Positions 89 to 37,708 of a stretch of 64,000 nt of DNA are shown here, piece by piece. The notes beneath the pieces are model-generated. The model was given only the letters and a program-made list of their open reading frames with translations, ran no database searches and had not been told where the DNA came from. Source of the stretch: a virus (taxonomy: Duplodnaviria > Caudoviricetes); IMG/VR virus record IMGVR_UViG_3300027759_000001; one strand, written 5' to 3'. Each line of letters begins with the position of its first letter. Position 1 is the first letter of the stretch. The position numbers and the translations under genes were made by a program.

Positions 89-871
89 ATGAAAAAAAAA
101 ATAGCAGTTATATCAGGTTGGTATAACTTTGGGGAAAATAACGGAATTAGTGATGACAATAGGTTTATGACTAATTGTTTTTATGAAAGTGCAAAAAAAC
201 ACTTTTTACCTCATCACGATGTTGAATTTATTTTTATGAACAATAGTGATATCACAATAGATGGGGTAACAAATATAAATTTTGATTATCAAATTGAGGG
301 GTTTTGGGAAATGTGTTTAATGAAAATTTTAAGTTTAAAATTTTTAAAAAACGAATATGACTATATATTTGTTCATGATAATGATCAAGTTTACATTAAA
401 GACGTAAATAACAAAATATTAGAATCTGATTTTACATTTGTGGACCATTTTTATCCATCACCCGTTAAGGATATTTACGAACAAGTAACAGATATAGTAG
501 AACTAAACTTCAACACATCTGAAGAAAAATGGACTATGGGTAATTTTTTTGGTGGAAAACAAAAAAATATGATGGAGTTATTATCAATAACTGAAGAACA
601 AAATAAAAAATATTTTGGTTATAATTTTAATCAAAATTATTTTTATTCAAGGTATCCTGAAGAACTTTTTATTGTTAAATATGTTTATGAAAATAATATT
701 AACCATAAAAGGCTTAATACGTGTGTACATCCATTACAATCTGAGGGGGAATATTTTTTAAGCGATTGGGGTGATGATGATTCGGTTCCTTTTGAGGTTA
801 CAAACGTAAATTTATTACACAACACTAAAAAAAATTTAAATAAATTAAGAAAATTATATAAACAAAATTAA
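89..871 (+). CDS. GT6-family (ABO/alpha-1,3-Gal/GalNAc transferase-like) glycosyltransferase
   Basis: FYESAKKHFLPHHDVEF, YDYIFVHDND (DxD at D97-D99), TMGNFFGG and EELFIVKY match the motif order of GT6 enzymes (F..SA..HF..G, DxD/NxN, YxGGFFGG, DESHLNKY). Confidence 0.75.
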   Translation: MKKKIAVISGWYNFGENNGISDDNRFMTNCFYESAKKHFLPHHDVEFIFMNNSDITIDGVTNINFDYQIEGFWEMCLMKILSLKFLKNEYDYIFVHDNDQVYIKDVNNKILESDFTFVDHFYPSPVKDIYEQVTDIVELNFNTSEEKWTMGNFFGGKQKNMMELLSITEEQNKKYFGYNFNQNYFYSRYPEELFIVKYVYENNINHKRLNTCVHPLQSEGEYFLSDWGDDDSVPFEVTNVNLLHNTKKNLNKLRKLYKQN

Positions 872-880
872 AAAAATTAT

Positions 881-2218
881 ATGGAAGAAAATAAAAAAAT
901 AGTTATAGCACAATTTTTTACCACTAACCTTAGTTATGGTAAATTTACAAAAGAAATAAATAAAAAGTATTGTGATGAAAAAGGATACATATATCATTTA
1001 GAGTCCGACAATAATAAAATAAAAACTGCATTAGAAGGTAGATCCCCAACATGGTATAAACCAAAATTTATTAATGAGGTTTTTGAGTTATATAATCCTG
1101 ATTACATTCTTTTTTTAGATGCAGATGCGATAGTATGTGATTTTAGTTATAAAGTGGAAGATTTTATTGATTCAGATTATAATATTATATGTACCGAAGA
1201 TTATGGACCTAGTAAATTAAATGCTGGTGTTTTCATAATGAAAAATTCAGATTGGACAAAACGAGTAATGAATAAATGGTGGGAGACAGGTAATAATTTA
1301 GTTGGAGGACCAAATAATGAAATGGGGTTCTATAAAACGGGATTATGGCACGATCAAACTTGTTTCGGACATTTAATGGATATTATGCCCGATTCTAAAA
1401 CAAACATTAAATTAATAACTAATAAAGTATTAAACGGTAGAGAGTATAAAAATAACGTAGATAAAAATTTTATATTTCACGCCTTCTCTTATGGTATGTT
1501 ACCAAATAGAACCATTGATAAATGTTATTACGACATCTTCAATATAGATATCCCTGATGGTGAAAAATTATCTGATATTGTAGAATATTACGATACGGAT
1601 AAACATTATGAACATAATTATTTAAGATTAATTTACGATGATTTATTTCTTCCCATACGAGAAGAAGTTAAAACTTTTGTTGAGATAGGTGTGAATCATG
1701 GAGGATCTATTTTAATGTGGAGAGATTATTTTAAAAACTCAAAAGTTTTAGGGTTAGATAATAATTTACCTTTCTGTGAAGAAAAATTAAGAGATAAAAA
1801 TTTAGATCGTATTGAATTAATTAATCTTGACCAATCAATTCCTGAAATGTTAGAAACATTTGCAAACCAATATAGTGACATTGATGTTATATTAGAAGAT
1901 GGTTCACATAGAATGCACGATCAACAAATCACATTAGCAAAATTATTTAAAACATTAAAGTCAGGGGGGATATATGTACTTGAGGACTTACATACTAGTT
2001 TAGAGGCTCCGATGCCTGAAAAGGCTTGGTGTGGGTGGGGAGACTCAACAAAAACATTAACCTTAGATATGTTAAACAATTTCATATCAACGGGCAAAAT
2101 ACAATCCGATTATTTAACGGAAGATGAGATTAATTATTTAAATGATAATATTTTATCTGTAGAGATATATCAAAATAGACCCGATTGGAGTATAACAAGT
2201 GTAATAATAAAAAAATAA
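881..2218 (+). CDS. Fusion: GT34 (GMA12/MNN10-like) glycosyltransferase + class I SAM-dependent (sugar O-)methyltransferase
   Basis: N-half: WYKP, YILFLDAD (D80-x-D82), LNAGVFIMKN, WHDQ. C-half (~aa 230-445): DTDKH, FVEIGVNHGGS..MWRDYF, VLGLD, DVILEDGSH, LKSGGIYVLEDL. Confidence 0.85.
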   Translation: MEENKKIVIAQFFTTNLSYGKFTKEINKKYCDEKGYIYHLESDNNKIKTALEGRSPTWYKPKFINEVFELYNPDYILFLDADAIVCDFSYKVEDFIDSDYNIICTEDYGPSKLNAGVFIMKNSDWTKRVMNKWWETGNNLVGGPNNEMGFYKTGLWHDQTCFGHLMDIMPDSKTNIKLITNKVLNGREYKNNVDKNFIFHAFSYGMLPNRTIDKCYYDIFNIDIPDGEKLSDIVEYYDTDKHYEHNYLRLIYDDLFLPIREEVKTFVEIGVNHGGSILMWRDYFKNSKVLGLDNNLPFCEEKLRDKNLDRIELINLDQSIPEMLETFANQYSDIDVILEDGSHRMHDQQITLAKLFKTLKSGGIYVLEDLHTSLEAPMPEKAWCGWGDSTKTLTLDMLNNFISTGKIQSDYLTEDEINYLNDNILSVEIYQNRPDWSITSVIIKK

Positions 2219-3180
2219 TGATAGGTATAGTTCACCACACATTTCTTACAGGTAACTGGCAAGAAATATTAAATTCCCAAATAGAAAGACTTATATCTTC
2301 TGGGTTATATGACAACGCAGATATTATATGGTTTACTTGTAATTTAAATGGAAATGATGAAAATGTATTCACCGACTTTCTTAAAGATTACAATAAAATA
2401 CAAACCGAATGTCATGTTAATAATGGAGCTGAATACCCTGGTATTCATAAAGTAAAAGAATTAGGTGATAACAATGAGGACATGAAGATCCTTTATTTTC
2501 ATGGTAAAGGAGTTAGTAATACATATACAAATAACGAAACTAAAGAAGTTAATGAAGATAAAGTAAAAAATATACAATCATGGAGAGAGTGTTTGGAATA
2601 TTTTGTCATTGATAAATGGAAAGATTGTGTTGATAAATTAGACGAATATGATAATGTTGGTGTTACTTGTAATGGTGGTTGGTATTGGGGTAACTTTTGG
2701 TGGTCACAATCTAAACACATAAAAAAATGTAGACCCGTTGATTATTGGGGTAGGTGGGATTATGAAGCTTGGTTAAATTCGTATGTGGAAAATCAAACTA
2801 ATTATGAATTTTTTAAATTTACGTATAACCCATATGTTACTATTATACATGAGGATTGGTATAAAAAAATAAGAACTGAAAATGACCCAATTAAAATAAC
2901 GGTATTAAATGCATTTTATGGTACCCCTCCATTTGAAATTGATGAGGGTTATTCAAATATTCCATTAAATGTTACGGAAGATGTTAAGAGTGTAATAGAA
3001 GAAAAATTGAAGGAACAGAATAATGAAAAATTTTATTTTCCCGTTAATAACGAATCTATGGGTTGTGACCCATCACCTGGAAATAGAAAGTTTTTATTTA
3101 TTGAATTTTATTTAAGTAACAGTAATAACATTTATAAATTAGGACTTCATGAAGGGATGTTCTTTGACCAAAAATTTTAA
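2218..3180 (+). CDS. Putative glycan-active enzyme (LYFHGKG / GNFWW family) with C-terminal lectin-like (DP.PG..K.L) domain
   Basis: True start is likely the ATG at 2218, overlapping the previous stop (TAATG). Motifs ILYFHGKG, YWGNFWW, RWDYEAW. C-terminal NAFYG...GCDPSPGNRKFLFIEF resembles SUEL-lectin/DUF3395-like domains. Sits in the GT operon. Confidence 0.55.
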   Translation: MIGIVHHTFLTGNWQEILNSQIERLISSGLYDNADIIWFTCNLNGNDENVFTDFLKDYNKIQTECHVNNGAEYPGIHKVKELGDNNEDMKILYFHGKGVSNTYTNNETKEVNEDKVKNIQSWRECLEYFVIDKWKDCVDKLDEYDNVGVTCNGGWYWGNFWWSQSKHIKKCRPVDYWGRWDYEAWLNSYVENQTNYEFFKFTYNPYVTIIHEDWYKKIRTENDPIKITVLNAFYGTPPFEIDEGYSNIPLNVTEDVKSVIEEKLKEQNNEKFYFPVNNESMGCDPSPGNRKFLFIEFYLSNSNNIYKLGLHEGMFFDQKF

Positions 3181-3189
3181 AAAATAATT

Positions 3190-5550
3190 ATGGAAGATTT
3201 TTTTGACAAGGTTTTACACTACTATGGTAGAAAAGGTGAAAAACTATTTATGATTAACATTGGTGCAATGGACGGTGTTTTATTTGATAGTATGAGTGGT
3301 TATGCGGATATGTATAATTCAGATGTGTTATATGTGGAACCAATGAAACCTCACTTTGACAGATTGGTTAAACATAAAGGAGGTAACCCAGCTAATAAGT
3401 TTGAGAACTCCGCAATTAGTAACTACAACGGAACTATAAACATGAAAACAATTCCAATTGAGATTGTTGATCAAGGATTAGTTCATCAAGCATTTTATGG
3501 TATGAGCGTTATTGACCCAACAAAGAATGGTATGGGTAGTGAAGGAGATAGAGAAGTTGTTGAGAAGTATGCCGTAGATGTTGAGGTTAATTGCATTACT
3601 TGGGATACGTTAGTTAAAAAACACGATATAGATTATTTTGATGTATTATCTGTAGATACGGAGGGACATGACTATACAATATTCAAACAAATTGATTTAG
3701 AAAAATTTAGACCTATTTTAATACGTTTAGAATGGTGTAATATGACAGACGAAGAAAAAACTAACATCCTTAATAAATTTACCTCATCAGGATATGTTTA
3801 TGAAATTTTGGATAATATGGATATTGATGCGGTTAGAGAAGATGTGTATGAAGAAATAAAGTCAAAATTAGAACCAAAACAAATAATTGAAACCTCAAAC
3901 TCAAAACTTACATTAGTGACAGGTCTTTGGGATATTGGAAGAGGTGACCTTCAAGAAGGGTGGTCTAGATCATTTCAACATTATTTAGATAAATTTCAAC
4001 AACTATTACAGGTTGATGTGAATATGATAATATTTGGAGATAAAGAATTAGAAGAATTTGTATTAAACAATAGAAGTAGTGAAAACACACAATTTGTAAT
4101 CAGGGATTTATCTTGGTTTAAAAATAATGATTTTTATGATAAAATACAAAAGATAAGAACTAACCCTGATTGGTATAATCAAATTGGTTGGTTAACAAAT
4201 TCTACACAAGCTAAATTAGAAATGTATAATCCTTTGGTAATGTCCAAAGTTTATCTTTTACACGATGCAAAGATTTTAGATAAGTTTGATTCAGAATATA
4301 TGTTTTGGATTGATGCTGGTTTAACAAATACAATTCATCCAGGATACTTCACTCAAGATAAAGTTTTAAATAAATTACCTCAATTGGTTAAGAATTTTCA
4401 CTTTGTTTGTTTCCCTTATGAAACAAATAGTGAAATACATGGATTTAAATATCAAGAGTTGTGTGATTTAGCGGGTAAACCTGTTAATATGGTTGCTAGA
4501 GCTGGTTTCTTTGGTGGAAAAAAAGATGTTATTTCTGAAATCAATAGTATATACTATGGATTAATGAACGATACTTTATCACAAGGGTTAATGGGAACTG
4601 AAGAGTCGTTATTTACAATTATGACCTACAAATATCCTAATTTAATAACGTATTCCGAAATAGAAAATAATGGTTTGATGGGTAAATTTTTTGAGGATTT
4701 AAAAAATATGACGGTTGAAACTAAAATTAATGATATTGGTAGTGAGATAGGATTATATGTTATTACGTTTAATTCACCAAAACAATTTGAGACTCTAATT
4801 GAGTCAATGTTAGACTACGATCCATCATTCGTAACTAAAACTAAAAAATATTTACTTAATAACTCAACAGATTTAACGACAACCGAAAGATATATTCAAC
4901 TATGTAACCAATATGGGTTTGAACATATTAAAAAAGATAATATTGGTATAACAGGTGGAAGACAATTTATTGCTGAACATTTTAATGAACAAAATAATTT
5001 AAGTCATTATTATTTTTTTGAGGATGATATGTTTTTTTATAATGGGGGAGATATAACTTGTAAAAATGGATTTGTTAGAAAAATAAAAAACATATTTGAC
5101 AACACATTAAAAATAATAAAAGAAGAAAATTTTGATTTTTTAAAGTTAAACTTTAGTGAATTTTATGGTAGTCACAATAAACAATGGGCTTGGTATAATG
5201 TTCCACAATCTTTCAGAGAATCCCATTGGGTAAACAATCCAAGATTACCCGAACATGGTTTGGATGCTAACTCACCTAATTTAGAATTTAAACACATAAA
5301 ATCTTATAATGGAATACCATATGCTACAGGTGAAATTTATTTGTGTAACTGGCCAATAGTCATGTCAAAAGAAGGTAATTACAAATGTTATCTTAAAACA
5401 AAATATGGTATGCCTTATGAACAAACTCTTATGTCCCATTGTTATCAAGAAATGGTAAAGGGTAATATAACGGGTTCTGTATTACTTTCAACACCAACTG
5501 ATCACAATAGATTTGATTTTTATGATGGTAATTTGAGAAAAGAATGTTAA
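3190..5550 (+). CDS. Triple fusion: FkbM-family methyltransferase + HtrL/YibB-like domain + GT-A (GT2-like) domain
   Basis: aa ~1-215: INIGAMDG, YVEP, DVLSVDTEGHD (FkbM). aa ~238-510: LTLVTGLWDIGR, YNPLVMSK, MFWIDAG (HtrL/YibB). aa ~520-786: LYVITFNS, NIGITGGRQ, YFFFEDD (E611-D613; GT-A). Confidence 0.8.
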   Translation: MEDFFDKVLHYYGRKGEKLFMINIGAMDGVLFDSMSGYADMYNSDVLYVEPMKPHFDRLVKHKGGNPANKFENSAISNYNGTINMKTIPIEIVDQGLVHQAFYGMSVIDPTKNGMGSEGDREVVEKYAVDVEVNCITWDTLVKKHDIDYFDVLSVDTEGHDYTIFKQIDLEKFRPILIRLEWCNMTDEEKTNILNKFTSSGYVYEILDNMDIDAVREDVYEEIKSKLEPKQIIETSNSKLTLVTGLWDIGRGDLQEGWSRSFQHYLDKFQQLLQVDVNMIIFGDKELEEFVLNNRSSENTQFVIRDLSWFKNNDFYDKIQKIRTNPDWYNQIGWLTNSTQAKLEMYNPLVMSKVYLLHDAKILDKFDSEYMFWIDAGLTNTIHPGYFTQDKVLNKLPQLVKNFHFVCFPYETNSEIHGFKYQELCDLAGKPVNMVARAGFFGGKKDVISEINSIYYGLMNDTLSQGLMGTEESLFTIMTYKYPNLITYSEIENNGLMGKFFEDLKNMTVETKINDIGSEIGLYVITFNSPKQFETLIESMLDYDPSFVTKTKKYLLNNSTDLTTTERYIQLCNQYGFEHIKKDNIGITGGRQFIAEHFNEQNNLSHYYFFEDDMFFYNGGDITCKNGFVRKIKNIFDNTLKIIKEENFDFLKLNFSEFYGSHNKQWAWYNVPQSFRESHWVNNPRLPEHGLDANSPNLEFKHIKSYNGIPYATGEIYLCNWPIVMSKEGNYKCYLKTKYGMPYEQTLMSHCYQEMVKGNITGSVLLSTPTDHNRFDFYDGNLRKEC

Positions 5551-5577: not shown

Positions 5578-6300
5578 ATGGAATTTTACATTAAGAAAAA
5601 TGCTACGTTACCCGTTTTAAAGATGCAAGTCGTTAAAGACGGTAGAAGTGATTATAATAAGATGATGGAAATGATTGAGGAATCTTCTATCTTCTTTTCA
5701 ATGGTAGATACTGAGACTGGAATTCCAAGAATTGTTACAAGACCCGCAGGATTTGTTGAGAAAACATTATTGGACCCAAATGCTGAGTATGAGTATTATG
5801 TTTATTATCAGTTCACATCAAATGATACAAGAAAAGTTGGTAGATATGAAGGTCAGTTCTTATTAAGAAATTCAGATGGCACATTAATTTTACCAATCAG
5901 AGAAAAACTTTATATAAACGTACAAGAAAGTTTCATTGCGGATGATCTTCCGTATGAATCTTGTTATGTTGTTGGTTTCCCTTGTTGTGCTAGTATACCT
6001 ACAACAACTACAACCACAACAACACCTTGTCCTAGTTGTAGGGCTTGTTGCCCACCAACTCCAACACCATTACCGACAACAACAACTACTACATATATAC
6101 CAATCACAACAACAACAACAATCCACAATGATTTTGTTGTTTTAGACATACCAGAAAATGATGTAAACTTTGGTTTAGTAATAACTAATTTAGTTCCTAT
6201 AGAAATACCTGAAGATGATGTAAACTTTGATTTGGTTATTACAAATTTAGTCCCTATAGAAATACCTGAAGATGATGTAAACTTTGATTTAATAATTTAA
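5578..6300 (+). CDS. Probable virion protein: BppU-N-like domain, Thr/Pro/Cys-rich linker and C-terminal 19-aa repeats
   Basis: N-terminal FYIKKNATLP.L...G.YEGQF resembles baseplate-upper-protein N domains; PTTTTTTTTPCPSCRACCPPTPTP linker; preceded by TATTTAT. Confidence 0.55.
   Translation: MEFYIKKNATLPVLKMQVVKDGRSDYNKMMEMIEESSIFFSMVDTETGIPRIVTRPAGFVEKTLLDPNAEYEYYVYYQFTSNDTRKVGRYEGQFLLRNSDGTLILPIREKLYINVQESFIADDLPYESCYVVGFPCCASIPTTTTTTTTPCPSCRACCPPTPTPLPTTTTTTYIPITTTTTIHNDFVVLDIPENDVNFGLVITNLVPIEIPEDDVNFDLVITNLVPIEIPEDDVNFDLII
6148..6300 (+). repeat. Coding tandem repeat, 57-bp unit x ~2.7 (IPE[N/D]DVNF[G/D]LVITNLVPIE)
   Basis: Units start at 6148, 6205 and 6262; differences are mostly synonymous. 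Confidence 0.95.
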
Positions 6301-6310
6301 AATTATAAGA

Positions 6311-6322
6311 TATTTATAAATA
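6311..6322 (+). promoter_or_regulatory. TATTTATAAATA motif (putative late promoter) before the carbonic anhydrase gene
   Basis: Perfect 12-bp palindrome in the intergenic gap. Confidence 0.6.
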
Positions 6323-6346: not shown

Positions 6347-7438
6347 ATGATACAAGGAATAAGAATTACAAGTCAAAATTTATCGGGGGATACCGCTAAT
6401 GTTACTTTTAACCCACAAACGGGTGGTACAATTAATTTAGGTACACAAACAATACCTTTTAATAATATCACAAATTATCCTTATGGTACTTATGAATTAT
6501 TTGTACCTGAATTTAATTACACATATGATGTAATTGTCCCAGCCCCGCAAAATGGTCAGGATGCATATACGACAACAGTTAGAGACGTTACAATAGATGG
6601 TGGATTAAAACCATTCTCAGGAGCGGTATTATCTGAAGTATGGGGGACATATACAACTGATTATATTACAAATCAAGGAATACCATCAACATCTATTGTT
6701 TTAGCTGAAGGTATTTGTTCTGATGATGTTGACGCATCAAAAGTACCATCAAATATTGGTCAATGGCCAAATAGTATTAATTCGTTTTTAGGTCCATTTA
6801 TGTCAGGTGGATTAGCGGGATATCCATTTGTGGGTAGTGTTGGTTTTGGGGCATTTGCAAGTCACGTAGCAACAAGTGGTGCTACCGAAACAAATGCCAC
6901 TTTATTTGTTACGAGTATGCCACATATTGGTGTGACTGAAGATGGTCGTTCAGGAAGAATGTTACGTAGAGGTAAAGCTGATAGTATAACAGATAATACT
7001 TGTGGTGCAGTTTGGGGAGCAATTAACCAAGTTGTAAATGTTTTATCAGCACCTCCAAGTCAAAGTAATCCACCATTTGATAATGGTAATTATTCTTTTT
7101 GGAAGTTAACAGATATTTTATGGCCATTTAAAAACGTATTATCAGGATTTACAGGAACTAGTGAGGAAATATATAATAAACAAATGATTTTTGCGACAGA
7201 AACAATTAGAGATGCCGCATATGATTATATTATTGATGTTTTACCAAGTCAAGTGACGGGTAACACACAAAACGATGTATATTTTTTAAGTGGTATTTTT
7301 ATCAATACTGATGTTATTCCTGACAGTACATTACAATTTGAATCTTATGTTGTTGTTGATAAAGTTATGAAATATGAATTTGGTATTGGTTGGAGTGATA
7401 TTACCATTAGTTATAACACTGGATTACCAATTGACTAA
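6347..7438 (+). CDS. LCIB/LCIC-type (theta/beta-like) carbonic anhydrase domain with N-terminal beta-rich extension
   Basis: ICSDD (C124), GGLAGYPFVG..GFGAFASHV, PHIG (H193), G..G...RRG, TCGA (C219): the motif series and Cys-His-Cys Zn ligand set of the LCIB_C_CA family. Confidence 0.8.
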   Translation: MIQGIRITSQNLSGDTANVTFNPQTGGTINLGTQTIPFNNITNYPYGTYELFVPEFNYTYDVIVPAPQNGQDAYTTTVRDVTIDGGLKPFSGAVLSEVWGTYTTDYITNQGIPSTSIVLAEGICSDDVDASKVPSNIGQWPNSINSFLGPFMSGGLAGYPFVGSVGFGAFASHVATSGATETNATLFVTSMPHIGVTEDGRSGRMLRRGKADSITDNTCGAVWGAINQVVNVLSAPPSQSNPPFDNGNYSFWKLTDILWPFKNVLSGFTGTSEEIYNKQMIFATETIRDAAYDYIIDVLPSQVTGNTQNDVYFLSGIFINTDVIPDSTLQFESYVVVDKVMKYEFGIGWSDITISYNTGLPID

Positions 7439-7459
7439 TTAAAAAAATTAACAAATCAG

Positions 7460-7488
7460 TTGATAAGAGTAATTTTTACTCCTATATT
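7460..7488 (+). promoter_or_regulatory. sigma70-like promoter for the DNA polymerase, with a palindrome in the spacer
   Basis: TTGATA (7460-7465), 17 nt, TATATT (7483-7488); spacer holds GAGTAA-TTT-TTACTC (7467-7481). Confidence 0.65.
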
Positions 7489-7505
7489 TATTTTACGAAG
7501 GTAAA

Positions 7506-7523
7506 TGCCGACCTAATTCGGCA
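7506..7523 (+). promoter_or_regulatory. 5'-UTR hairpin upstream of the DNA polymerase gene
   Basis: TGCCGA-CCTAAT-TCGGCA: a 6-bp GC-rich stem in otherwise AT-rich DNA, 28 nt before the GTG start. Confidence 0.5.
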
Positions 7524-7551
7524 GCTAATAAACCAACTAAAATAATTTATA

Positions 7552-10335
7552 GTGATATCACAAGAAGAAATAAAAAGTTTCCTAGAAGGGAACGATCCTG
7601 AGGAACATATTGTTTCCGTAGAGTTTGATTACGTATCAGACCACATTTTCAAAATTAAAGAAGTACCTGGTAAAGGTAAAATTATACAACAAGATTCGTT
7701 AATCGCGTTTGCTTGGGTTGGTGATCTACGTGGTCTTAACTTTTACGAAGGTTCCAAAGCATTGCAAAAACAGGCGATGGGTAAATATGGTATCCTCATA
7801 GAAAAACTCCGAACAGATGGTAATGAACGATTAGAAGAAGGATTAACCTTTATGGTTAAATCCATTAAAGGATATCGTTCTTTAACCCAATTCTTCCGTG
7901 ATGGTGGAATTGATCCGTGGGGTGAAAAGGCAAAAGATAAAATCCTAATGGTTTCTCCTGTGGAACAATACCTCATCTCAAAAGAGAAAAGATTGTTCAA
8001 AGGGTTTGAGGAATACAATGATATAACGAGGTTTGTATTTGACCTTGAGACGACCGCATTAGAACCAAAGGATGGTCGTATCTTTATGATTGGAATGAAA
8101 ACAAATAAAGGATTCCAAAAAGTTATTGAATGTTCAAACGAAGATGAGGAACGAGCAGGTCTTGTGGAGTTCTTCAAAACAATAGACCAACTTAAACCAT
8201 CAATCATTGCGGGGTATAACTCAGCAAACTTTGACTGGTTTTGGATATTTGAAAGATGTAAATCACTTCATTTAGATATTAAGAAGATTGCAATCTCAAT
8301 GAATGCTAAAAAGACAATATCACAAAAAGAATCAATGTTAAAGTTGGCAAATGAGGTTGAAAGATTTAATCAAGTTCAAATGTGGGGTTATAATGTAATT
8401 GATATTATTCACTCAGTTCGTAGATCACAAGCGATCAACTCAAACATTAAAGAGGCAGGTTTGAAGTATATTACCAAGTTTATTGATGCCGAAGCAAAAG
8501 ATCGTATCTATATTGACCACACAAGTATTGGTCCAATGTATGCAGAAAAGGACGAATATTGGTTAAACGTAGAAAATGGTAATTACAAAAAAGTTGGATC
8601 CGATCCAAAGGTAGATGAGATATGTGTAAGACGAGGGGATGTATATCTTAAAACAACGGGGGACGACATAGTTGAGCGTTATCTTGACGATGACCTTGAG
8701 GAAACGTTGATTGTGGATGACGAGTTCAACCAAGCAACGTTTCTATTAGCATCCTTGGTACCAACAACATATGAAAGAGCATCCACAATGGGAACGGCAA
8801 CATTATGGAAAATGGTAATGTTGGCTTGGTCATATAAATATGGTTTGGCAATACCACAGAAAAAAGAACGAAGAAGTTTTGTTGGTGGTTTATCACGTTT
8901 ACTTAAAGTAGGTTATTCTAAGGACGTTCTTAAGCTTGACTACTCGTCACTATACCCATCCATTCAGTTAGTTCACGACGTGTTCCCTGAGTGTGATATA
9001 ACGGGAGCAATGAAGGGGTTATTAACCTACTTCCGTAACTCTCGTATTATGTATAAGAACTTGGCGGCAGAATATAAAACCATAGATAAGAAGAAATCAA
9101 CATCTTTTGACCGTAAACAATTACCTATTAAGATCTTTATTAATGCGTTCTTCGGATCGTTATCAGCACCACAGGTATTTCCGTGGGGTGATATTGACAT
9201 GGGGGAACAGATTACTTGTACAGGTAGACAATACCTACGACAAATGTTAAAGTTCTTTAGTAAACGAGGATATAGTCCTTTGGTATGTGATACCGATGGT
9301 ATGAACTTCTCATTACCTGATGGTGGTGTTGATGACAGAGTTTATATAGGTAAAGGAAAAAATTGGTTGGTTAAAGAGGGTAAAGAATATCGTGGTTATG
9401 ATGCCGATGTTGCAGAGTTTAATGATATCTTTATGAAAGGTGAAATGGGACTTGATTGTGATGGTACTTGGGATTCTTGTATTAACTTGGCTCGTAAGAA
9501 CTACGCAACAATGGAACAAAATGGTAAGGTTAAATTAACGGGTAATAGTATTAAGTCTAAGAAGATGCCAAAATACATTGAGAAGTTTTTGGATAAGGGA
9601 GTTAAACAATTACTTAGAGGTGAGGGTAAAGAATTTATTGAGTGGTATTATGAGTATATCCAAAAGATATTTGACCAAAGAGTTCCGTTGGCTGAGATTG
9701 CATCTAAATCAAGAGTTAAATTAAGTGTTGAGGATTACATCAAACGTAGTAAACAAACTACTAAAGCGGGTAATCTTAATTCACGAATGGCTCATATGGA
9801 ACTTCTTATTAGAGATGGGATACAATCAAATCTTGGAGATACAATCCTTTATGTTAACAACGGAACAAAGGCATCTCATGGTGATGTTCAGAAAGTTAAT
9901 GAAAAAATGACTAAGAAGGAAAAAGATGAATACTTTGAGAAACACGGTAAAATGCCAGTACTTGGTTCACACGTAGAATTAAATTGTTATCGTATTGAAC
10001 CATCGGATTTAGAAAATAACCCCGAAATGTTAGGGGAATATAATATCCAAAGAGCAATTGCAACTTTTAACAAACGAGTTGAACCTTTGATGATTGTATT
10101 TGATGATGAGGTTAGAGATACTTTATTAGTTAAGGATCCTGAAGATAGAAGTTTCTATACATCAGACCAATGTAAATTGATTAATGGTAAACCATTTAGT
10201 CCTGGTGACCAAGATGATGTTTACGAAAACTTAATTAAAATGGAACAAGGTGAAGTAGAGTTTTGGGAATCTGTCGGTATTGATCCAAACTATATGTATG
10301 GATTGGCCGAAGAAGGTTGGGAAGAATTCGTGTGA
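7552..10335 (+). CDS. Family B DNA polymerase with 3'-5' exonuclease
   Basis: ExoI FDLETT, ExoII GYNSANFD, ExoIII YLDDD; motif A LDYSSLYPS, motif B KIFINAFFG, motif C CDTDG. GTG start. Confidence 0.97.
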   Translation: MISQEEIKSFLEGNDPEEHIVSVEFDYVSDHIFKIKEVPGKGKIIQQDSLIAFAWVGDLRGLNFYEGSKALQKQAMGKYGILIEKLRTDGNERLEEGLTFMVKSIKGYRSLTQFFRDGGIDPWGEKAKDKILMVSPVEQYLISKEKRLFKGFEEYNDITRFVFDLETTALEPKDGRIFMIGMKTNKGFQKVIECSNEDEERAGLVEFFKTIDQLKPSIIAGYNSANFDWFWIFERCKSLHLDIKKIAISMNAKKTISQKESMLKLANEVERFNQVQMWGYNVIDIIHSVRRSQAINSNIKEAGLKYITKFIDAEAKDRIYIDHTSIGPMYAEKDEYWLNVENGNYKKVGSDPKVDEICVRRGDVYLKTTGDDIVERYLDDDLEETLIVDDEFNQATFLLASLVPTTYERASTMGTATLWKMVMLAWSYKYGLAIPQKKERRSFVGGLSRLLKVGYSKDVLKLDYSSLYPSIQLVHDVFPECDITGAMKGLLTYFRNSRIMYKNLAAEYKTIDKKKSTSFDRKQLPIKIFINAFFGSLSAPQVFPWGDIDMGEQITCTGRQYLRQMLKFFSKRGYSPLVCDTDGMNFSLPDGGVDDRVYIGKGKNWLVKEGKEYRGYDADVAEFNDIFMKGEMGLDCDGTWDSCINLARKNYATMEQNGKVKLTGNSIKSKKMPKYIEKFLDKGVKQLLRGEGKEFIEWYYEYIQKIFDQRVPLAEIASKSRVKLSVEDYIKRSKQTTKAGNLNSRMAHMELLIRDGIQSNLGDTILYVNNGTKASHGDVQKVNEKMTKKEKDEYFEKHGKMPVLGSHVELNCYRIEPSDLENNPEMLGEYNIQRAIATFNKRVEPLMIVFDDEVRDTLLVKDPEDRSFYTSDQCKLINGKPFSPGDQDDVYENLIKMEQGEVEFWESVGIDPNYMYGLAEEGWEEFV

Positions 10336-11845: not shown

Positions 11846-12934
11846 TTATTTTGTTCTTAACAAATATAATTCGTTAACAAATTCCCAATTAACGTGATTC
11901 CAAAAATTATTTATATATTCGTCACGTTTATTACGATATTTTAGATAGTATGCGTGTTCCCACACATCAAGTCCTAATAGTGGATACCCACCATCTTTGA
12001 CTACATTCATTAATGGATTATCTTGATTAGATGTGGAAATAATTTTTAATCTATTATTTTTAGTTAAAATTAACCAAGCCCACCCTGATCCAAATCTATC
12101 TTTAGCAACCTGATTAAATTCATCTTTTAATTTTTTAATATTTCCGTATTGTTTTGTAATTTTTTCAAATACTTCACCACTTGGTTTTTGTTTGGTTGGA
12201 CTTAACATTTTCCAAAATAAAGCGTGATTAAAGGCACCACCAGCATTATTTCTAACTTTAGTATCATACTTACTAATATTTTTGATTATGTCTTCTAATT
12301 CAACATCACCTTTTTTATTTGATAACGCATCATTTAATTTCTTAACATAACCTTTATAATGTTTGTTGTAATGGATATCCATAGTTTCAGGATCTACAAA
12401 TTGTTTCATTGATGAATATGAATATGGTAATTTTTCAATACCAATTTTTTTCATTTCCATTATAAAATCTTTTTTGATATTTTGTTTTTCTGAAATTAAA
12501 ATTTGTTCATTAATAAGATTAATTTTATTGTTAATCCCTTTAAACCCTTCAAAAACATATTCATTAAATTGTGGGTATTCTTCTTCAAACATTTTAATTA
12601 GTCGGCCACCATATGCATTTGCTTCATCTTCATTCTGACCACCAATGTTTGGACCTTGTTCTCTTTTAAGAACATTTATTTGGTAAGCATGAACCCACTC
12701 ATGAGCTAATGTTCTCATTATATCACGATTTAATCTACCATCAGTTAATACTTTAATTCCATTTTTTGGGTGTTGACTACCTGTAGACATTCCACCTATT
12801 TTTTTACCCACAAATTGAATAGTGATATCCTCCTTTAATTGATAATTCTTTTGTAAGAATTTAATAAAGGTGTGAATTAACTCGTTATACTTTGAATCAA
12901 GTCCTGAATTTATACGTTTGATGCTTACTTTCAT
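11846..12934 (-). CDS. Fusion: zincin-like HExxH domain + Mn/Fe superoxide dismutase
   Basis: aa 78-82 HEWVH with downstream NEDEANA. aa ~164-362: LPYSY, DIHYNKH, NNAGGAFNHALFW, FGSGWAWL, NQDNP, LDVWEHAYY (all four SOD metal ligands present). Confidence 0.92.
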   Translation of the reverse strand: MKVSIKRINSGLDSKYNELIHTFIKFLQKNYQLKEDITIQFVGKKIGGMSTGSQHPKNGIKVLTDGRLNRDIMRTLAHEWVHAYQINVLKREQGPNIGGQNEDEANAYGGRLIKMFEEEYPQFNEYVFEGFKGINNKINLINEQILISEKQNIKKDFIMEMKKIGIEKLPYSYSSMKQFVDPETMDIHYNKHYKGYVKKLNDALSNKKGDVELEDIIKNISKYDTKVRNNAGGAFNHALFWKMLSPTKQKPSGEVFEKITKQYGNIKKLKDEFNQVAKDRFGSGWAWLILTKNNRLKIISTSNQDNPLMNVVKDGGYPLLGLDVWEHAYYLKYRNKRDEYINNFWNHVNWEFVNELYLLRTK

Positions 12935-37483: not shown

Positions 37484-37708
37484 ATGGATACAAAATTAAT
37501 TTTAGACAACTACTTGGGTAAAAACACAAGAGTGTCAGAGAAAGATAAAGGTAATGGGTACAAAGAAGTTTGTGACTTAGATACTGGAGATTGTTATACG
37601 CTTAGAATAAAAGACGGATTAATTGAGAGAGTTGATAATACTATGAACACATTCAAAAAAATCCAAGTTGAAACTAAAACAGGAATTAAACAATTATTAA
37701 ACGGATAA
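37484..37708 (+). CDS. Hypothetical protein (74 aa)
   Basis: ORF after TATTTATAAATA motif; contains CDLDTGDC. Confidence 0.7.
   Translation: MDTKLILDNYLGKNTRVSEKDKGNGYKEVCDLDTGDCYTLRIKDGLIERVDNTMNTFKKIQVETKTGIKQLLNG

What the first reader, a model, noticed from the sequence alone, without database searches (positions are those of the whole stretch)
6347..7438. Phage-encoded LCIB/theta-type carbonic anhydrase, fused to a structural-type domain and under the late motif
Seen: all the LCIB-family motifs and the Cys124/His193/Cys219 ligand set, a ~70-aa Thr/Asn/Gly-rich beta-type N-terminal extension, and an upstream TATTTATAAATA like the structural genes. Known: LCIB/LCIC and theta-CA proteins work in algal and diatom CO2-concentrating mechanisms. 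Inference: a phage CO2/bicarbonate (or local pH) enzyme that may be displayed on or packaged in the virion rather than acting as an ordinary early metabolic gene. I know of no functional study of such a phage protein.
Basis: partly seen in the sequence, partly recalled or inferred. Interest (0 to 1): 0.85.

Follow-up and report, generated by a model that had tools for sequence, protein, structure and literature searches.

The report
Phage carbonic anhydrase on plug-in handle
A giant freshwater bacteriophage encodes a complete algal-type (LCIB/theta) carbonic anhydrase joined to a small phage-only "handle" domain that related phages attach to many other proteins. This suggests, without proving it, that the enzyme rides on the virus particle.

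Summary
ORF 6347-7438 (+, 363 aa) matches Pfam PF18599 LCIB_C_CA (96.6 bits against a cut-off of 25). A confident model matches the solved LCIB structures best (TM 0.83 to 6kfs and PtLCIB4). C124, D126, H173, H193, R207 and C219 are invariant in 44 homologues. A beta-CA-type homodimer is modelled.

New here:
- The enzyme belongs to a strongly supported clade that holds every homologue whose phage context I checked. A bacterial homologue is its sister.
- Residues 1-67 are a phage-only beta-sandwich module. It always sits at the extreme N-terminus of at least 67 other protein clusters. Those carry Thr/Pro linkers, a beta-propeller, a lectin domain or unknown heads.
- Related jumbo phages hold several module genes per locus. 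In one, a 691-aa module protein occupies the carbonic anhydrase's position.

The upstream TATTTATAAATA is real. Sense-strand TATTTAT occurs 15 times in the intergenic DNA, against 1.65 expected. It precedes the sheath, tube, neck and baseplate genes, but also PolB and the DnaB helicase, so "late" is likely, not shown.

Catalysis and virion display remain inferences. No paper found describes an LCIB-type enzyme in a phage. The scan noted the same architecture in another genome (e1-5407930).

The parts
6311..6322 (.). Palindromic TATTTATAAATA. It contains the genome's recurrent sense-strand motif TATTTAT (6311-6317) and the T4 late-promoter word TATAAATA (6315-6322). It is a candidate promoter for the gene.
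   Evidence: The 18-nt form AGATATTTATAAATAAAA recurs before the gp13-like neck gene (11829, minus strand) and before a 74-aa ORF (37463).
6347..7438 (+). Coding sequence of 363 aa (P0001): N-terminal module plus LCIB/theta-type carbonic anhydrase domain.
   Evidence: There are 392 clusters of homologues; the 120 best listed are full-length and 75-98% identical.
6347..6547 (+). N-terminal module, residues 1-67: a small phage-only beta sandwich shared by many otherwise unrelated proteins.
   Evidence: Only generic Ig/FN3-like fold matches were found, Z 5-6.
6554..7435 (+). LCIB_C_CA (beta-carbonic-anhydrase fold) domain, residues 70-363.
   Evidence: Pfam match. Model pLDDT above 90 from residue 71. 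Foldseek TM 0.83 to 6kfs and 5b5y. Profile E 9e-54 and 3e-52.
6716..6724 (+). Codons C124-S125-D126: first Zn ligand, the Ser that the active PtLCIB4 also has, and the catalytic Asp.
   Evidence: C124 and D126 are invariant in 44 sequences. S125 aligns with S47 of PtLCIB4, as shown by the S47R mutant chain.
6863..6865 (+). Codon H173, the equivalent of PtLCIB4 His88.
   Evidence: Invariant. Mapped through the H88A mutant chain 5b5z. It lies in the modelled dimer interface.
6923..6925 (+). Codon H193, second Zn ligand (PHIG motif).
   Evidence: Invariant. Aligned to the PH(V/I)G motif of the solved LCIB chains.
6965..6970 (+). Codons R207-R208 (RRG motif). R207 is invariant.
   Evidence: A review calls the equivalent Arg194/193 of CrLCIB/LCIC important for the active site (PMC5876011). 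Residues 207-211 lie in the modelled interface.
7001..7003 (+). Codon C219, third Zn ligand.
   Evidence: Invariant. Aligned to the second Cys of the CCG motif of the solved chains.
7467..7495 (+). A/U-rich hairpin (7467-7481) followed by a T-rich run, a possible end of the transcription unit. The run itself contains the next TATTTAT (7485-7491), ahead of PolB.
   Evidence: The fold of 7436-7555 has a z-score of -4.0. Motif position. A second hairpin lies at 7506-7523.

Best explanation
The gene encodes a zinc-dependent carbonic anhydrase of the LCIB/theta subtype (beta-CA fold). It works as a homodimer with the active site at the subunit interface, interconverting CO2 and bicarbonate.

The enzyme is made by an uncultured freshwater jumbo myovirus with T4-like core genes. 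It belongs to a clade of LCIB proteins in which every checked member sits in a phage context.

Its first 67 residues are a phage-only beta-sandwich 'handle'. This phage lineage puts the same handle at the N-terminus of many different proteins: lectin, beta-propeller and large unknown heads, often behind Thr/Pro linkers.

The gene looks like a transcription unit of its own, behind the TATTTAT motif that also precedes the sheath, tube, neck and baseplate genes.

The most likely reading is that the handle docks these proteins to one common site on the virion. The particle would then carry an active carbonic anhydrase that acts outside the cytoplasm: at the host surface, in the particle's surroundings, or on entry.

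Shown: family membership, an intact ligand and catalytic set, the fold, the modular handle, the clade of phage-context homologues, and motif sharing.
Inferred: zinc binding and turnover (about 0.65), late timing (about 0.6), virion association (about 0.45).
For: Family and active site:
- PF18599 at 96.6 bits against a cut-off of 25.
- The profile of 44 homologues hits solved LCIB chains: 6kfs at 9e-54 and PtLCIB4 at 3e-52.
- The AF2 model has pLDDT 84.9, above 90 in the domain. Its best Foldseek hits are all LCIB structures (TM 0.79-0.83 to 6kfs and the PtLCIB4 chains). Canonical beta-CAs follow.
- C124, D126, H173, H193, R207 and C219 are invariant down to about 22% identity.
- S125 matches the Ser of PtLCIB4. 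H173 matches its His88.

Dimer:
- The model scores 0.90; the best of 3 controls scores 0.01.
- In calibration the mark was reached by 20 of 30 proteins solved as pairs of one chain, and by 1 of 23 solved as single chains.
- The runs agree in at least 96% of contacts. The partner's pLDDT is at least 92.
- The interface holds residues 125-131, 148-156, 161-166, 173, 207-211 and 220-221.
- LCIB dimers have been solved, so the pass may reflect likeness only.

Selection and spread:
- 392 clusters of homologues. The 120 best listed are 75-98% identical over the full length, on contigs up to 320 kb.
- Mostly freshwater runs from 16 studies.

Clade of phage-context homologues:
- A 27-row clade (support 100/100, stem length 1.67) holds all 11 rows with a checked phage context.
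- Its sister P0168 lies in a bacterial contig.

Handle:
- Residues 3-70 alone match the extreme N-terminus of at least 67 other representative clusters of 72-829 aa. In 28 of them a Thr/Pro/Ser-rich segment follows directly.
- The heads include a DUF5122 beta-propeller and Laminin_G_3.
- L001 holds four module genes within about 10 kb. In L005/L006 a 691-aa module protein sits where the LCIB gene sits in L001.
- The nearest structure clusters are 100% viral.
- There is no signal peptide: the module starts at residue 1.
- A second clade repeats the design with another N-terminus that also exists as a 73-aa stand-alone gene next door.

Motif.
Against: - There is no biochemical, proteomic or timing evidence of any kind.
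- Chlamydomonas LCIB and LCIC have the same ligand set yet showed no activity in vitro (review PMC5876011). An intact site therefore does not guarantee turnover.
- The handle resembles no annotated virion protein. There is no PHROG hit and no similarity to other ORFs of this window. Fold matches are only generic, Z 5-6.
- The neighbouring large genes in related phages gave no clear tail-fibre annotation.
- TATTTAT also precedes PolB and the DnaB helicase. The exact motif is not kept before the orthologues in L001 and L003.
- In this protein the handle joins the enzyme without the Thr/Pro linker seen in many module proteins.
- No obvious use for a carbonic anhydrase outside a cell is known for phages.
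Confidence: 0.5

Rival explanations
1. It is an ordinary intracellular auxiliary metabolic enzyme. The carbonic anhydrase works in the infected cytoplasm. It speeds bicarbonate supply for carboxylations that feed nucleotide and lipid synthesis (carbamoyl-phosphate synthetase, the purine carboxylation step, acetyl-CoA carboxylase). Or, if the host is a phototroph, it short-circuits the host's inorganic-carbon pool. On this reading the N-terminal module is an oligomerisation or cytoplasmic targeting domain, not a virion anchor.
For: - The catalytic set is intact.
- Viral alpha, beta and gamma carbonic anhydrases have been reported as auxiliary genes in metagenomes (bioRxiv 10.64898/2026.01.21.700432).
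- The gene lies beside PolB, and the window also holds RNR and a superoxide dismutase.
- TATTTAT also precedes PolB and the helicase.
- The dependence of those carboxylases on bicarbonate is established biochemistry (my knowledge).
Against: - The module is shared with lectin, propeller and Thr/Pro-linker proteins, which look extracellular rather than metabolic.
- In a related phage the same genomic position holds a 691-aa module protein with no recognisable enzyme family.
- A second phage clade independently joins the domain to another N-terminal module shared with a neighbouring gene.
- Host-type beta-CAs would be the easier genes to borrow, yet the phage proteins form their own long-stemmed clade.
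Confidence: 0.3
2. The LCIB-like domain is not a carbonic anhydrase in this setting. Either it is a binding or structural head in which the zinc site is kept for stability or for ligand recognition, comparable to the inactive Chlamydomonas LCIB/LCIC. Or it is a beta-CA-fold enzyme with another small substrate, as in the COS and CS2 hydrolases.
For: - CrLCIB and LCIC lack activity in vitro despite the same ligands (PMC5876011).
- The other heads carried by the handle are binding-type domains: lectin and beta-propeller.
- The phage clade has its own insertion after CSDD (the NIGQxP segment) and a long stem. Both allow a changed pocket.
- In three lineages the gene follows glycan-building genes: this window, L011 and L014.
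Against: - Every residue tied to catalysis, not only the metal ligands, is invariant across the clade: D126, H173 and R207.
- Position 125 is Ser as in PtLCIB4.
- The modelled dimer places these residues at the interface, as in LCIB and beta-CA structures.
Confidence: 0.17
3. It is a recently captured, decaying or mis-assembled algal or bacterial gene with no role for the phage.
For: None beyond the unusual family for a phage.
Against: - The 120 best-matching homologue clusters are full-length, intact and 75-98% identical, from many samples and studies.
- The position is syntenic in contigs of 166-320 kb.
- It belongs to a strongly supported clade in which every checked member lies in a phage context.
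- The pattern scan of 185,579 species genomes found only one marginal locus, of 34% identity over 50 residues.
Confidence: 0.03

Closest known systems
PtLCIB4 and other diatom/algal theta-type (LCIB-family) carbonic anhydrases; PDB 5b5y, 6kfs, 9vzj
   Same: Same Pfam family (PF18599) and same fold (TM 0.83). Same Cys-His-Cys zinc set with Asp two residues after the first Cys. Same His88 equivalent and RRG arginine, and Ser next to the first Cys as in PtLCIB4. The dimer is modelled through the same face.
   Different: About 20% identity. The phage clade has an extra NIGQxP segment after CSDD and lacks the Arg of the algal CSDEVxR stretch. There is no transit or signal peptide and no pyrenoid or thylakoid context. 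It carries a phage-only N-terminal module and is encoded by a virus of bacteria.
Chlamydomonas LCIB/LCIC (PDB 5k5w, 5b5x)
   Same: Same family and ligand set. One related phage (L009) even has two tandem paralogues, which recalls the LCIB-LCIC pair.
   Different: A weaker match: TM 0.68-0.70 and profile E about 1e-21. CrLCIB/LCIC were inactive in vitro (PMC5876011). The PDB holds a PtLCIB4 S47R mutant (5b60), and the phage keeps Ser at that position. That the mutant copies an Arg of CrLCIB is my recollection and was not checked here.
Bacterial LCIB_C_CA homologues (for example P0168/P0307 in a bacterial contig, L013)
   Same: Sister group of the phage clade in the tree. Same CSDD, PHIG and CG motifs.
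   Different: About 27% identity, 275 aa, with no N-terminal module and no NIGQxP insertion. They sit among housekeeping and two-component genes. Their function is also unstudied.
Modular phage fibre, spike and decoration proteins (conserved N-terminal virion-binding part, exchangeable C-terminal head) and Ig-like decoration domains such as T4 Hoc
   Same: The module is strictly N-terminal and sits on many different heads. There are several paralogues per locus, heads are exchanged at one genomic position, Thr/Pro linkers occur, and the fold is a small beta sandwich.
   Different: No sequence or specific structural match to any known anchor or decoration domain. Attachment to the virion is untested. 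The comparison with these systems rests on my general knowledge.
Viral carbonic anhydrases reported from metagenomes (alpha, beta, gamma classes)
   Same: A virus-encoded CO2/bicarbonate enzyme in aquatic communities (bioRxiv 10.64898/2026.01.21.700432).
   Different: Those belong to the alpha, beta and gamma classes and are read as metabolic genes close to their hosts' copies. This one is of the LCIB/theta subtype, lies in a clade whose checked members are all in phage contexts, and is fused to a module.

Membership tests
LCIB / theta-type carbonic anhydrase (Pfam PF18599 LCIB_C_CA) | Match to the family HMM above the curated gathering score | tested here: met
   96.6 bits against a cut-off of 25, E 1.7e-27, residues 104-337, profile positions 12-216 of 223.
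LCIB / theta-type carbonic anhydrase (Pfam PF18599 LCIB_C_CA) | Cys-His-Cys zinc ligand set in register with solved members | tested here: met
   C124, H193 and C219 are invariant in 44 sequences. They align to the CSD, PH(V/I)G and CCG motifs of 6kfs, 5b5y and 9vzj. Model coordinates could not be read, so ligand distances were not measured.
LCIB / theta-type carbonic anhydrase (Pfam PF18599 LCIB_C_CA) | Catalytic Asp after the first Cys, the His88 equivalent and the RRG arginine | tested here: met
   D126, H173 and R207 are invariant. H173 was mapped through the H88A mutant chain. The review names the equivalent His162 and Arg194 of CrLCIB as important (PMC5876011).
LCIB / theta-type carbonic anhydrase (Pfam PF18599 LCIB_C_CA) | Beta-carbonic-anhydrase-like fold closest to LCIB structures | tested here: met
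   Foldseek gives 6kfs at E 1e-14 and TM 0.83, and 5b5y at TM 0.83. All eight hits with E at or below 0.001 are LCIB-family entries. Canonical beta-CAs follow at E about 1e-3.
LCIB / theta-type carbonic anhydrase (Pfam PF18599 LCIB_C_CA) | Homodimer with the active site at the subunit interface | tested here: inconclusive
   The model scores 0.90 against a best control of 0.01. In calibration the mark was reached by 20 of 30 proteins solved as pairs of one chain and by 1 of 23 solved as single chains. The runs agree in at least 96% of contacts and the partner's pLDDT is at least 92. The interface includes residues 125-131, 173 and 207-211. Like complexes have been solved, so this shows likeness, not binding.
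LCIB / theta-type carbonic anhydrase (Pfam PF18599 LCIB_C_CA) | Zinc content and CO2 hydration activity | not testable with these tools
   This needs purified protein, with metal analysis and a stopped-flow or 18O-exchange assay.
Algal/diatom CO2-concentrating-mechanism component | Plastid targeting and a role around the pyrenoid or thylakoid of a phototroph | tested here: not met
   The protein is encoded by a tailed phage with sheath, tube, baseplate and gp13-like genes. It has no transit or signal peptide; the phage module starts at residue 1. It shares the enzyme family, not the cellular system.
Genes behind the T4-type late promoter | TATAAATA about 10 nt before the transcript start, shared with virion genes and read by a gp55-type factor | tested here: inconclusive
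   TATAAATA lies at 6315-6322, 25 nt before the ATG. The recurrent word in this genome is the sense-strand TATTTAT, with 15 intergenic sites against 1.65 expected. It stands before the sheath, tube, gp25, gp13 and large structural genes, but also before PolB and DnaB. A gp55 homologue was not sought, because the rest of the genome is not held.
Phage virion proteins with an exchangeable head on a conserved N-terminal anchor | The same N-terminal domain on different C-terminal heads, as paralogues in one phage lineage | tested here: met
   At least 67 representative clusters carry the module without LCIB. The heads include DUF5122 and Laminin_G_3. L001 has four module genes. In L005/L006 a 691-aa module protein takes the LCIB position.
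Phage virion proteins with an exchangeable head on a conserved N-terminal anchor | Physical presence in the particle, docked to a structural protein | not testable with these tools
   There is no isolate and no proteome. The fold matches of the module are generic beta sandwiches, Z 5-6.

The most novel reading that the evidence does not exclude
The particles of a widespread lineage of freshwater jumbo phages carry an active carbonic anhydrase dimer on their surface, held by a 67-residue plug-in handle. The same handle displays lectins, propellers and other heads. This would be a general display system in which one cargo is an enzyme that changes CO2/bicarbonate/pH chemistry at the host surface or in the particle's micro-environment. 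It would be the first virion-borne carbonic anhydrase and a new class of virion accessory function.
Probability: 0.3. Interest if true: 0.85.

Novelty: new variant of a known kind. Interest (0 to 1): 0.62.

Why it matters
LCIB/theta carbonic anhydrases are known only as parts of algal and diatom CO2-concentrating mechanisms, and even there their activity is debated. Here the same enzyme core appears as a strongly supported clade of homologues that, wherever checked, lie in tailed-phage contigs. That clade is common in lake metagenomes.

At least two of its lineages have the core joined to lineage-specific N-terminal modules that are shared with neighbouring genes. If the enzyme is active, phages add a previously unnoticed source of CO2/bicarbonate catalysis to freshwater carbon chemistry. 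If it sits on the particle, it would be a new kind of virion function.

Apart from the enzyme, the 67-residue handle defines a large, unannotated family of modular phage proteins. The enzyme gives that family an assayable cargo with which to find its docking site. The small, soluble phage versions may also help in working out why some LCIB proteins are active and others are not.

Tried and rejected
- Phage records: DNA and protein searches of INPHARED with the locus, the protein and the module found nothing. The closest isolates by PolB are only about 23% identical, from Salinibacter and Nostoc/Anabaena phages. No cultured relative or host could be named.
- Own genome: it is not held. The nearest virus record, G001 (44.5 kb), has no match.
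- The module against the other ORFs of this window: nothing significant by blastp or phmmer.
- PHROGs: no family for the protein, for seven of the ten homologues tested from the representative search (the other three gave only marginal matches, E 0.003-0.007), or, usefully, for the neighbours in related phages.
- ESM Atlas feature search of residues 1-95: no usable hit.
- Module fold searches in PDB and BFVD: no match at E 0.001 or better. VIA-align gave only generic Ig/FN3/T9SS-CTD-like sandwiches, Z 5-6.
- Pattern scan of 185,579 species genomes. The narrower one found a single marginal locus in a Terriglobia MAG. Being pattern-limited, this does not show absence from cells.
- N-terminus of the second clade (P0134). 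Its resemblance to tail-fibre N-termini is my recollection. tblastn gave only E 0.004-1 hits, one of them to a 'putative tail fiber protein'. This is not evidence.
- RNA libraries. Contigs from a lake metatranscriptome cover 6394-6544 with no differences. DNA carry-over cannot be excluded and contigs give no level or strand, so this is a weak hint of transcription only.
- Host clues. Only 5 of 39 genes have a Shine-Dalgarno-like core, and no sense-strand TAnnTTTG box lies in this window's intergenic DNA. The host stays unknown. The Bacteroidota suggestion in earlier notes was not confirmed here.
- P0127 and P0128, high-scoring 'homologues' with 30-49 matched stretches, are Arg-rich tandem-repeat translations and not relatives.
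- A capsid-targeting or protease-cleaved leader was considered. The N-terminus has no early (I/L)xE-type motif, and the only LSE lies inside the folded domain. Rejected by inspection.
- Literature: no paper in the held library links LCIB, theta-CA or PF18599 to phages. The primary structural paper on PtLCIB4 was not held.
Full report
**1. The observation**

The window has an open reading frame at 6347-7438 on the plus strand, 363 aa (P0001). D126, H173 and R207/R208 are also present. The first 70 residues are rich in Thr, Asn and Gly (14, 13 and 10%).

The 12-mer TATTTATAAATA lies at 6311-6322. Allowing one mismatch, it has 7 matches in the window against 2.8 expected.

**2. The setting**

The window is part of a tailed phage with T4-like core genes:
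- Virion genes: sheath (17053-20394), gp19-type tube, T4-type baseplate proteins, gp25- and gp6-like wedge proteins, and a gp13-like neck protein.
- Replication genes: gp32-like SSB, UvsX, a DnaB-type helicase, ribonucleotide reductase, a family-B polymerase and an SNF2 helicase.

G+C is 31.5%. Orthologues of the finding lie on contigs of 166-320 kb, so this is a jumbo myovirus.

No record in the phage collection is close. The best PolB matches are about 23% identical. Runs that hold the stretch are mostly freshwater and lake metagenomes, from 16 studies. The host is unknown. Only 5 of 39 genes have a Shine-Dalgarno-like core.

**3. The C-terminal 290 residues are an LCIB-family carbonic anhydrase domain**

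- Pfam PF18599 matches at 96.6 bits, against a gathering score of 25.
- The single sequence already finds solved LCIB chains. A profile of 44 homologues finds them at E 9e-54 (6kfs), 3e-52 (PtLCIB4) and about 1e-21 (Chlamydomonas LCIB and LCIC).
- The AlphaFold model has pLDDT 84.9 and is above 90 throughout the domain.
- All eight Foldseek matches with E at or below 0.001 are LCIB-family structures. TM is 0.83 to 6kfs and PtLCIB4. Canonical beta-carbonic anhydrases follow.
- Across 44 sequences, down to about 22% identity, the invariant columns include C124, D126, H173, H193, R207 and C219.
- The PDB mutant chains fix two equivalences. The H88A chain shows that H173 is His88 of PtLCIB4. The S47R chain shows that S125 is its Ser47.
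- A review names the equivalents of H173 and R207 as the residues whose disorder was blamed for the inactivity of CrLCIB/LCIC (PMC5876011).

A two-copy model of residues 68-363 scored 0.90, and the best of three controls scored 0.01. In calibration the mark was reached by 20 of 30 proteins solved as pairs of one chain, and by 1 of 23 solved as single chains. The runs agree in at least 96% of contacts, and the partner's pLDDT is at least 92. The interface contains 125-131, 148-156, 161-166, 173, 207-211 and 220-221, the surroundings of the metal site. LCIB dimers have been solved, so this shows likeness rather than binding.

I could not read model coordinates, so ligand distances were not measured.

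**4. A clade of phage-context homologues**

The closest 120 listed clusters are full-length and 75-98% identical. In the exhaustive search of representatives the next relatives are 30-49% identical.

I checked the genomic context of four further groups. All are phage-like:
- L010 has the prohead protease, the gp23 capsid protein, PhoH, then LCIB, then gp13.
- L009 has lysozyme, RNA ligase, dCMP deaminase and two tandem LCIB genes.
- L011 and L014 have long runs of small genes after a glycan-building block.

In a maximum-likelihood tree, all 11 rows with a checked phage context fall in one 27-row clade with 100/100 support and a stem of 1.67. The sister row, P0168, lies in a bacterial contig among isocitrate dehydrogenase, two-component and transketolase genes. 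Eukaryote-like rows lie on the other side.

Most members of the clade share an inserted NIGQxP segment after CSDD. Sixteen rows of the clade have an unchecked context, and the root is at the midpoint only.

**5. The N-terminal 67 residues are a separable, phage-only module**

- The exhaustive search returned a second class of hits that match only residues 3-70, always at positions 2-5 to about 70 of the target.
- Among the 150 best representatives, 67 carry the module without an LCIB domain. Their lengths are 72-829 aa. In 28 of them a Thr/Pro/Ser-rich segment follows directly.
- The heads that Pfam recognises are a DUF5122 beta-propeller and a Laminin_G_3 lectin domain. Most heads are unknown.
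- An HMM of the module finds several genes per locus in related jumbo phages. In L001 these are the LCIB gene, an 87-aa stand-alone form, a 150-aa protein and a 685-aa protein.
- In L005/L006 a 691-aa module protein directly follows the large 1332-aa gene. In L001 the LCIB gene lies downstream of the counterpart of that gene (1351 aa), after an extra 802-aa gene. So the carbonic anhydrase is one of several alternative cargoes at one variable locus.
- This 64-kb window holds only the one copy.
- With an alignment of 56 modules, the model is a six-strand beta sandwich with pLDDT about 85 over residues 1-67.
- It has only generic Ig, FN3 or T9SS-CTD-like matches, Z 5-6. Its nearest ESM Atlas clusters are 100% viral hypothetical proteins.

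A second LCIB clade repeats the design with a different N-terminus. That N-terminus also exists as a 73-aa stand-alone gene immediately upstream.

**6. The upstream motif**

The sense-strand core TATTTAT occurs 15 times in the 2156 nt of intergenic DNA, against 1.65 in shuffles. It is about 36 times denser there than in coding DNA.

It lies 6-61 nt before the following genes:
- the LCIB gene and the gene before it;
- the sheath, tube, gp25-like wedge and gp13-like neck genes;
- the 1680-aa and 1814-aa proteins;
- the zincin-SOD fusion and several unknowns;
- but also PolB (7485) and the DnaB helicase (42161).

At the LCIB gene the palindrome also spells the T4 late-promoter word TATAAATA. The 18-nt form AGATATTTATAAATAAAA is repeated before the neck gene and before a 74-aa ORF. 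The exact word is not conserved before the orthologues in L001 and L003, where related A/T words stand instead.

Downstream, a hairpin with a T-rich run (7467-7495) and a second hairpin (7506-7523) separate the gene from PolB.

The gene therefore looks like a transcription unit of its own that shares its signal mainly, but not only, with virion genes. Late timing is likely but not shown. Contigs from a lake RNA library match 6394-6544 exactly. That is only a weak hint of transcription.

**7. Reading**

What is shown:
- a complete LCIB/theta-type beta-CA core with every residue tied to metal binding and catalysis;
- conservation in hundreds of variants;
- membership of a strongly supported clade whose checked members all lie in phage contexts;
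- fusion to a phage-only N-terminal module that behaves like an exchangeable-cargo handle.

What is inferred:
- The enzyme is active (about 0.65). Set against this, the Chlamydomonas proteins have the same ligands but were inactive in vitro.
- It is made late (about 0.6).
- The handle docks it to the virion (about 0.45).

The virion inference rests on five points: the strictly N-terminal position of the module, its multiplicity, the Thr/Pro linkers and binding-type heads of its sister proteins, the absence of a signal peptide, and the motif shared with structural genes.

The main rival is an intracellular metabolic carbonic anhydrase (0.3). A non-catalytic head, or one with a different substrate, is possible (0.17).

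**8. Novelty**

Searches of the held literature found no paper linking LCIB, theta-CA or PF18599 to phages. Viral alpha, beta and gamma carbonic anhydrases have been reported from metagenomes as auxiliary genes.

This is a new variant of a known enzyme kind, with a new lineage, a new fusion and a new setting. It is not a new kind of system. An earlier first-stage note of this scan describes the same architecture in another genome (e1-5407930). That note is not independent evidence.

Noticed in passing
window 11846-12934 (-): A 362-aa protein whose C-terminal half is an Fe/Mn superoxide dismutase (Sod_Fe_N and Sod_Fe_C, E 3e-20 and 2e-39). Its N-terminal 160 residues contain an HEWVH (HExxH-like) motif. 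TATTTAT lies 6 nt upstream. The gene sits between the SNF2 helicase and the gp13-like neck gene.
   Followed up: partly
window 5578-6300 (+); L001 9838-9936; L003 9936-9971: The gene just upstream of the finding has a Thr/Pro/Cys-rich tract and ends in three repeats of about 19 aa built on IPE(N/D)DVNF(G/D)L(V/I)I. In related phages the proteins at the same position (802 and 676 aa) are otherwise unrelated, yet they end in the same peptide. This is a conserved C-terminal tag of unknown role.
   Followed up: partly
window, 15 sense-strand intergenic sites (for example 5557, 6311, 7485, 17009, 21378, 24934, 47073, 49439): TATTTAT is a strongly enriched, strand-tracking intergenic motif: 15 sites observed against 1.65 expected. 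It is the reverse complement of most of T4's late-promoter word. It precedes mostly virion genes, but also PolB and the DnaB helicase.
   Followed up: yes
window 37484-37708 (+): A 74-aa ORF below the list threshold. It is preceded by the same 18-nt AGATATTTATAAATAAAA that precedes the LCIB and neck genes.
   Followed up: no
L009 8001-10067: Another phage carries two adjacent LCIB-family genes (401 and 285 aa, 37% identical to P0001 over 271 residues for the second). This recalls the LCIB-LCIC pair of Chlamydomonas.
   Followed up: no
L010 7765-9086: In a T4-like phage the LCIB gene lies between the gp23/PhoH genes and gp13. Its N-terminal 45 or so residues are duplicated as a 73-aa stand-alone gene directly upstream.
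   Followed up: partly
window 89-5550; L011 1-6557; L014 1-6560: In three different LCIB lineages the gene follows a block of glycosyltransferase, methyltransferase and sugar-epimerase genes, with one or two genes between. This could be shared late or accessory placement, or a functional link. It is unexplained.
   Followed up: no
L005 12092-13003: Where the 691-aa module protein replaces the LCIB gene, the next gene is a 303-aa peptidase (phrog_16701, E 1e-55; faint Peptidase_C1). It is another enzyme in this variable locus.
   Followed up: no
window 17053-20394 (+): The tail sheath is 1113 aa. The recognisable sheath domains lie only in residues 823-1104, so about 800 residues are extra.
   Followed up: no
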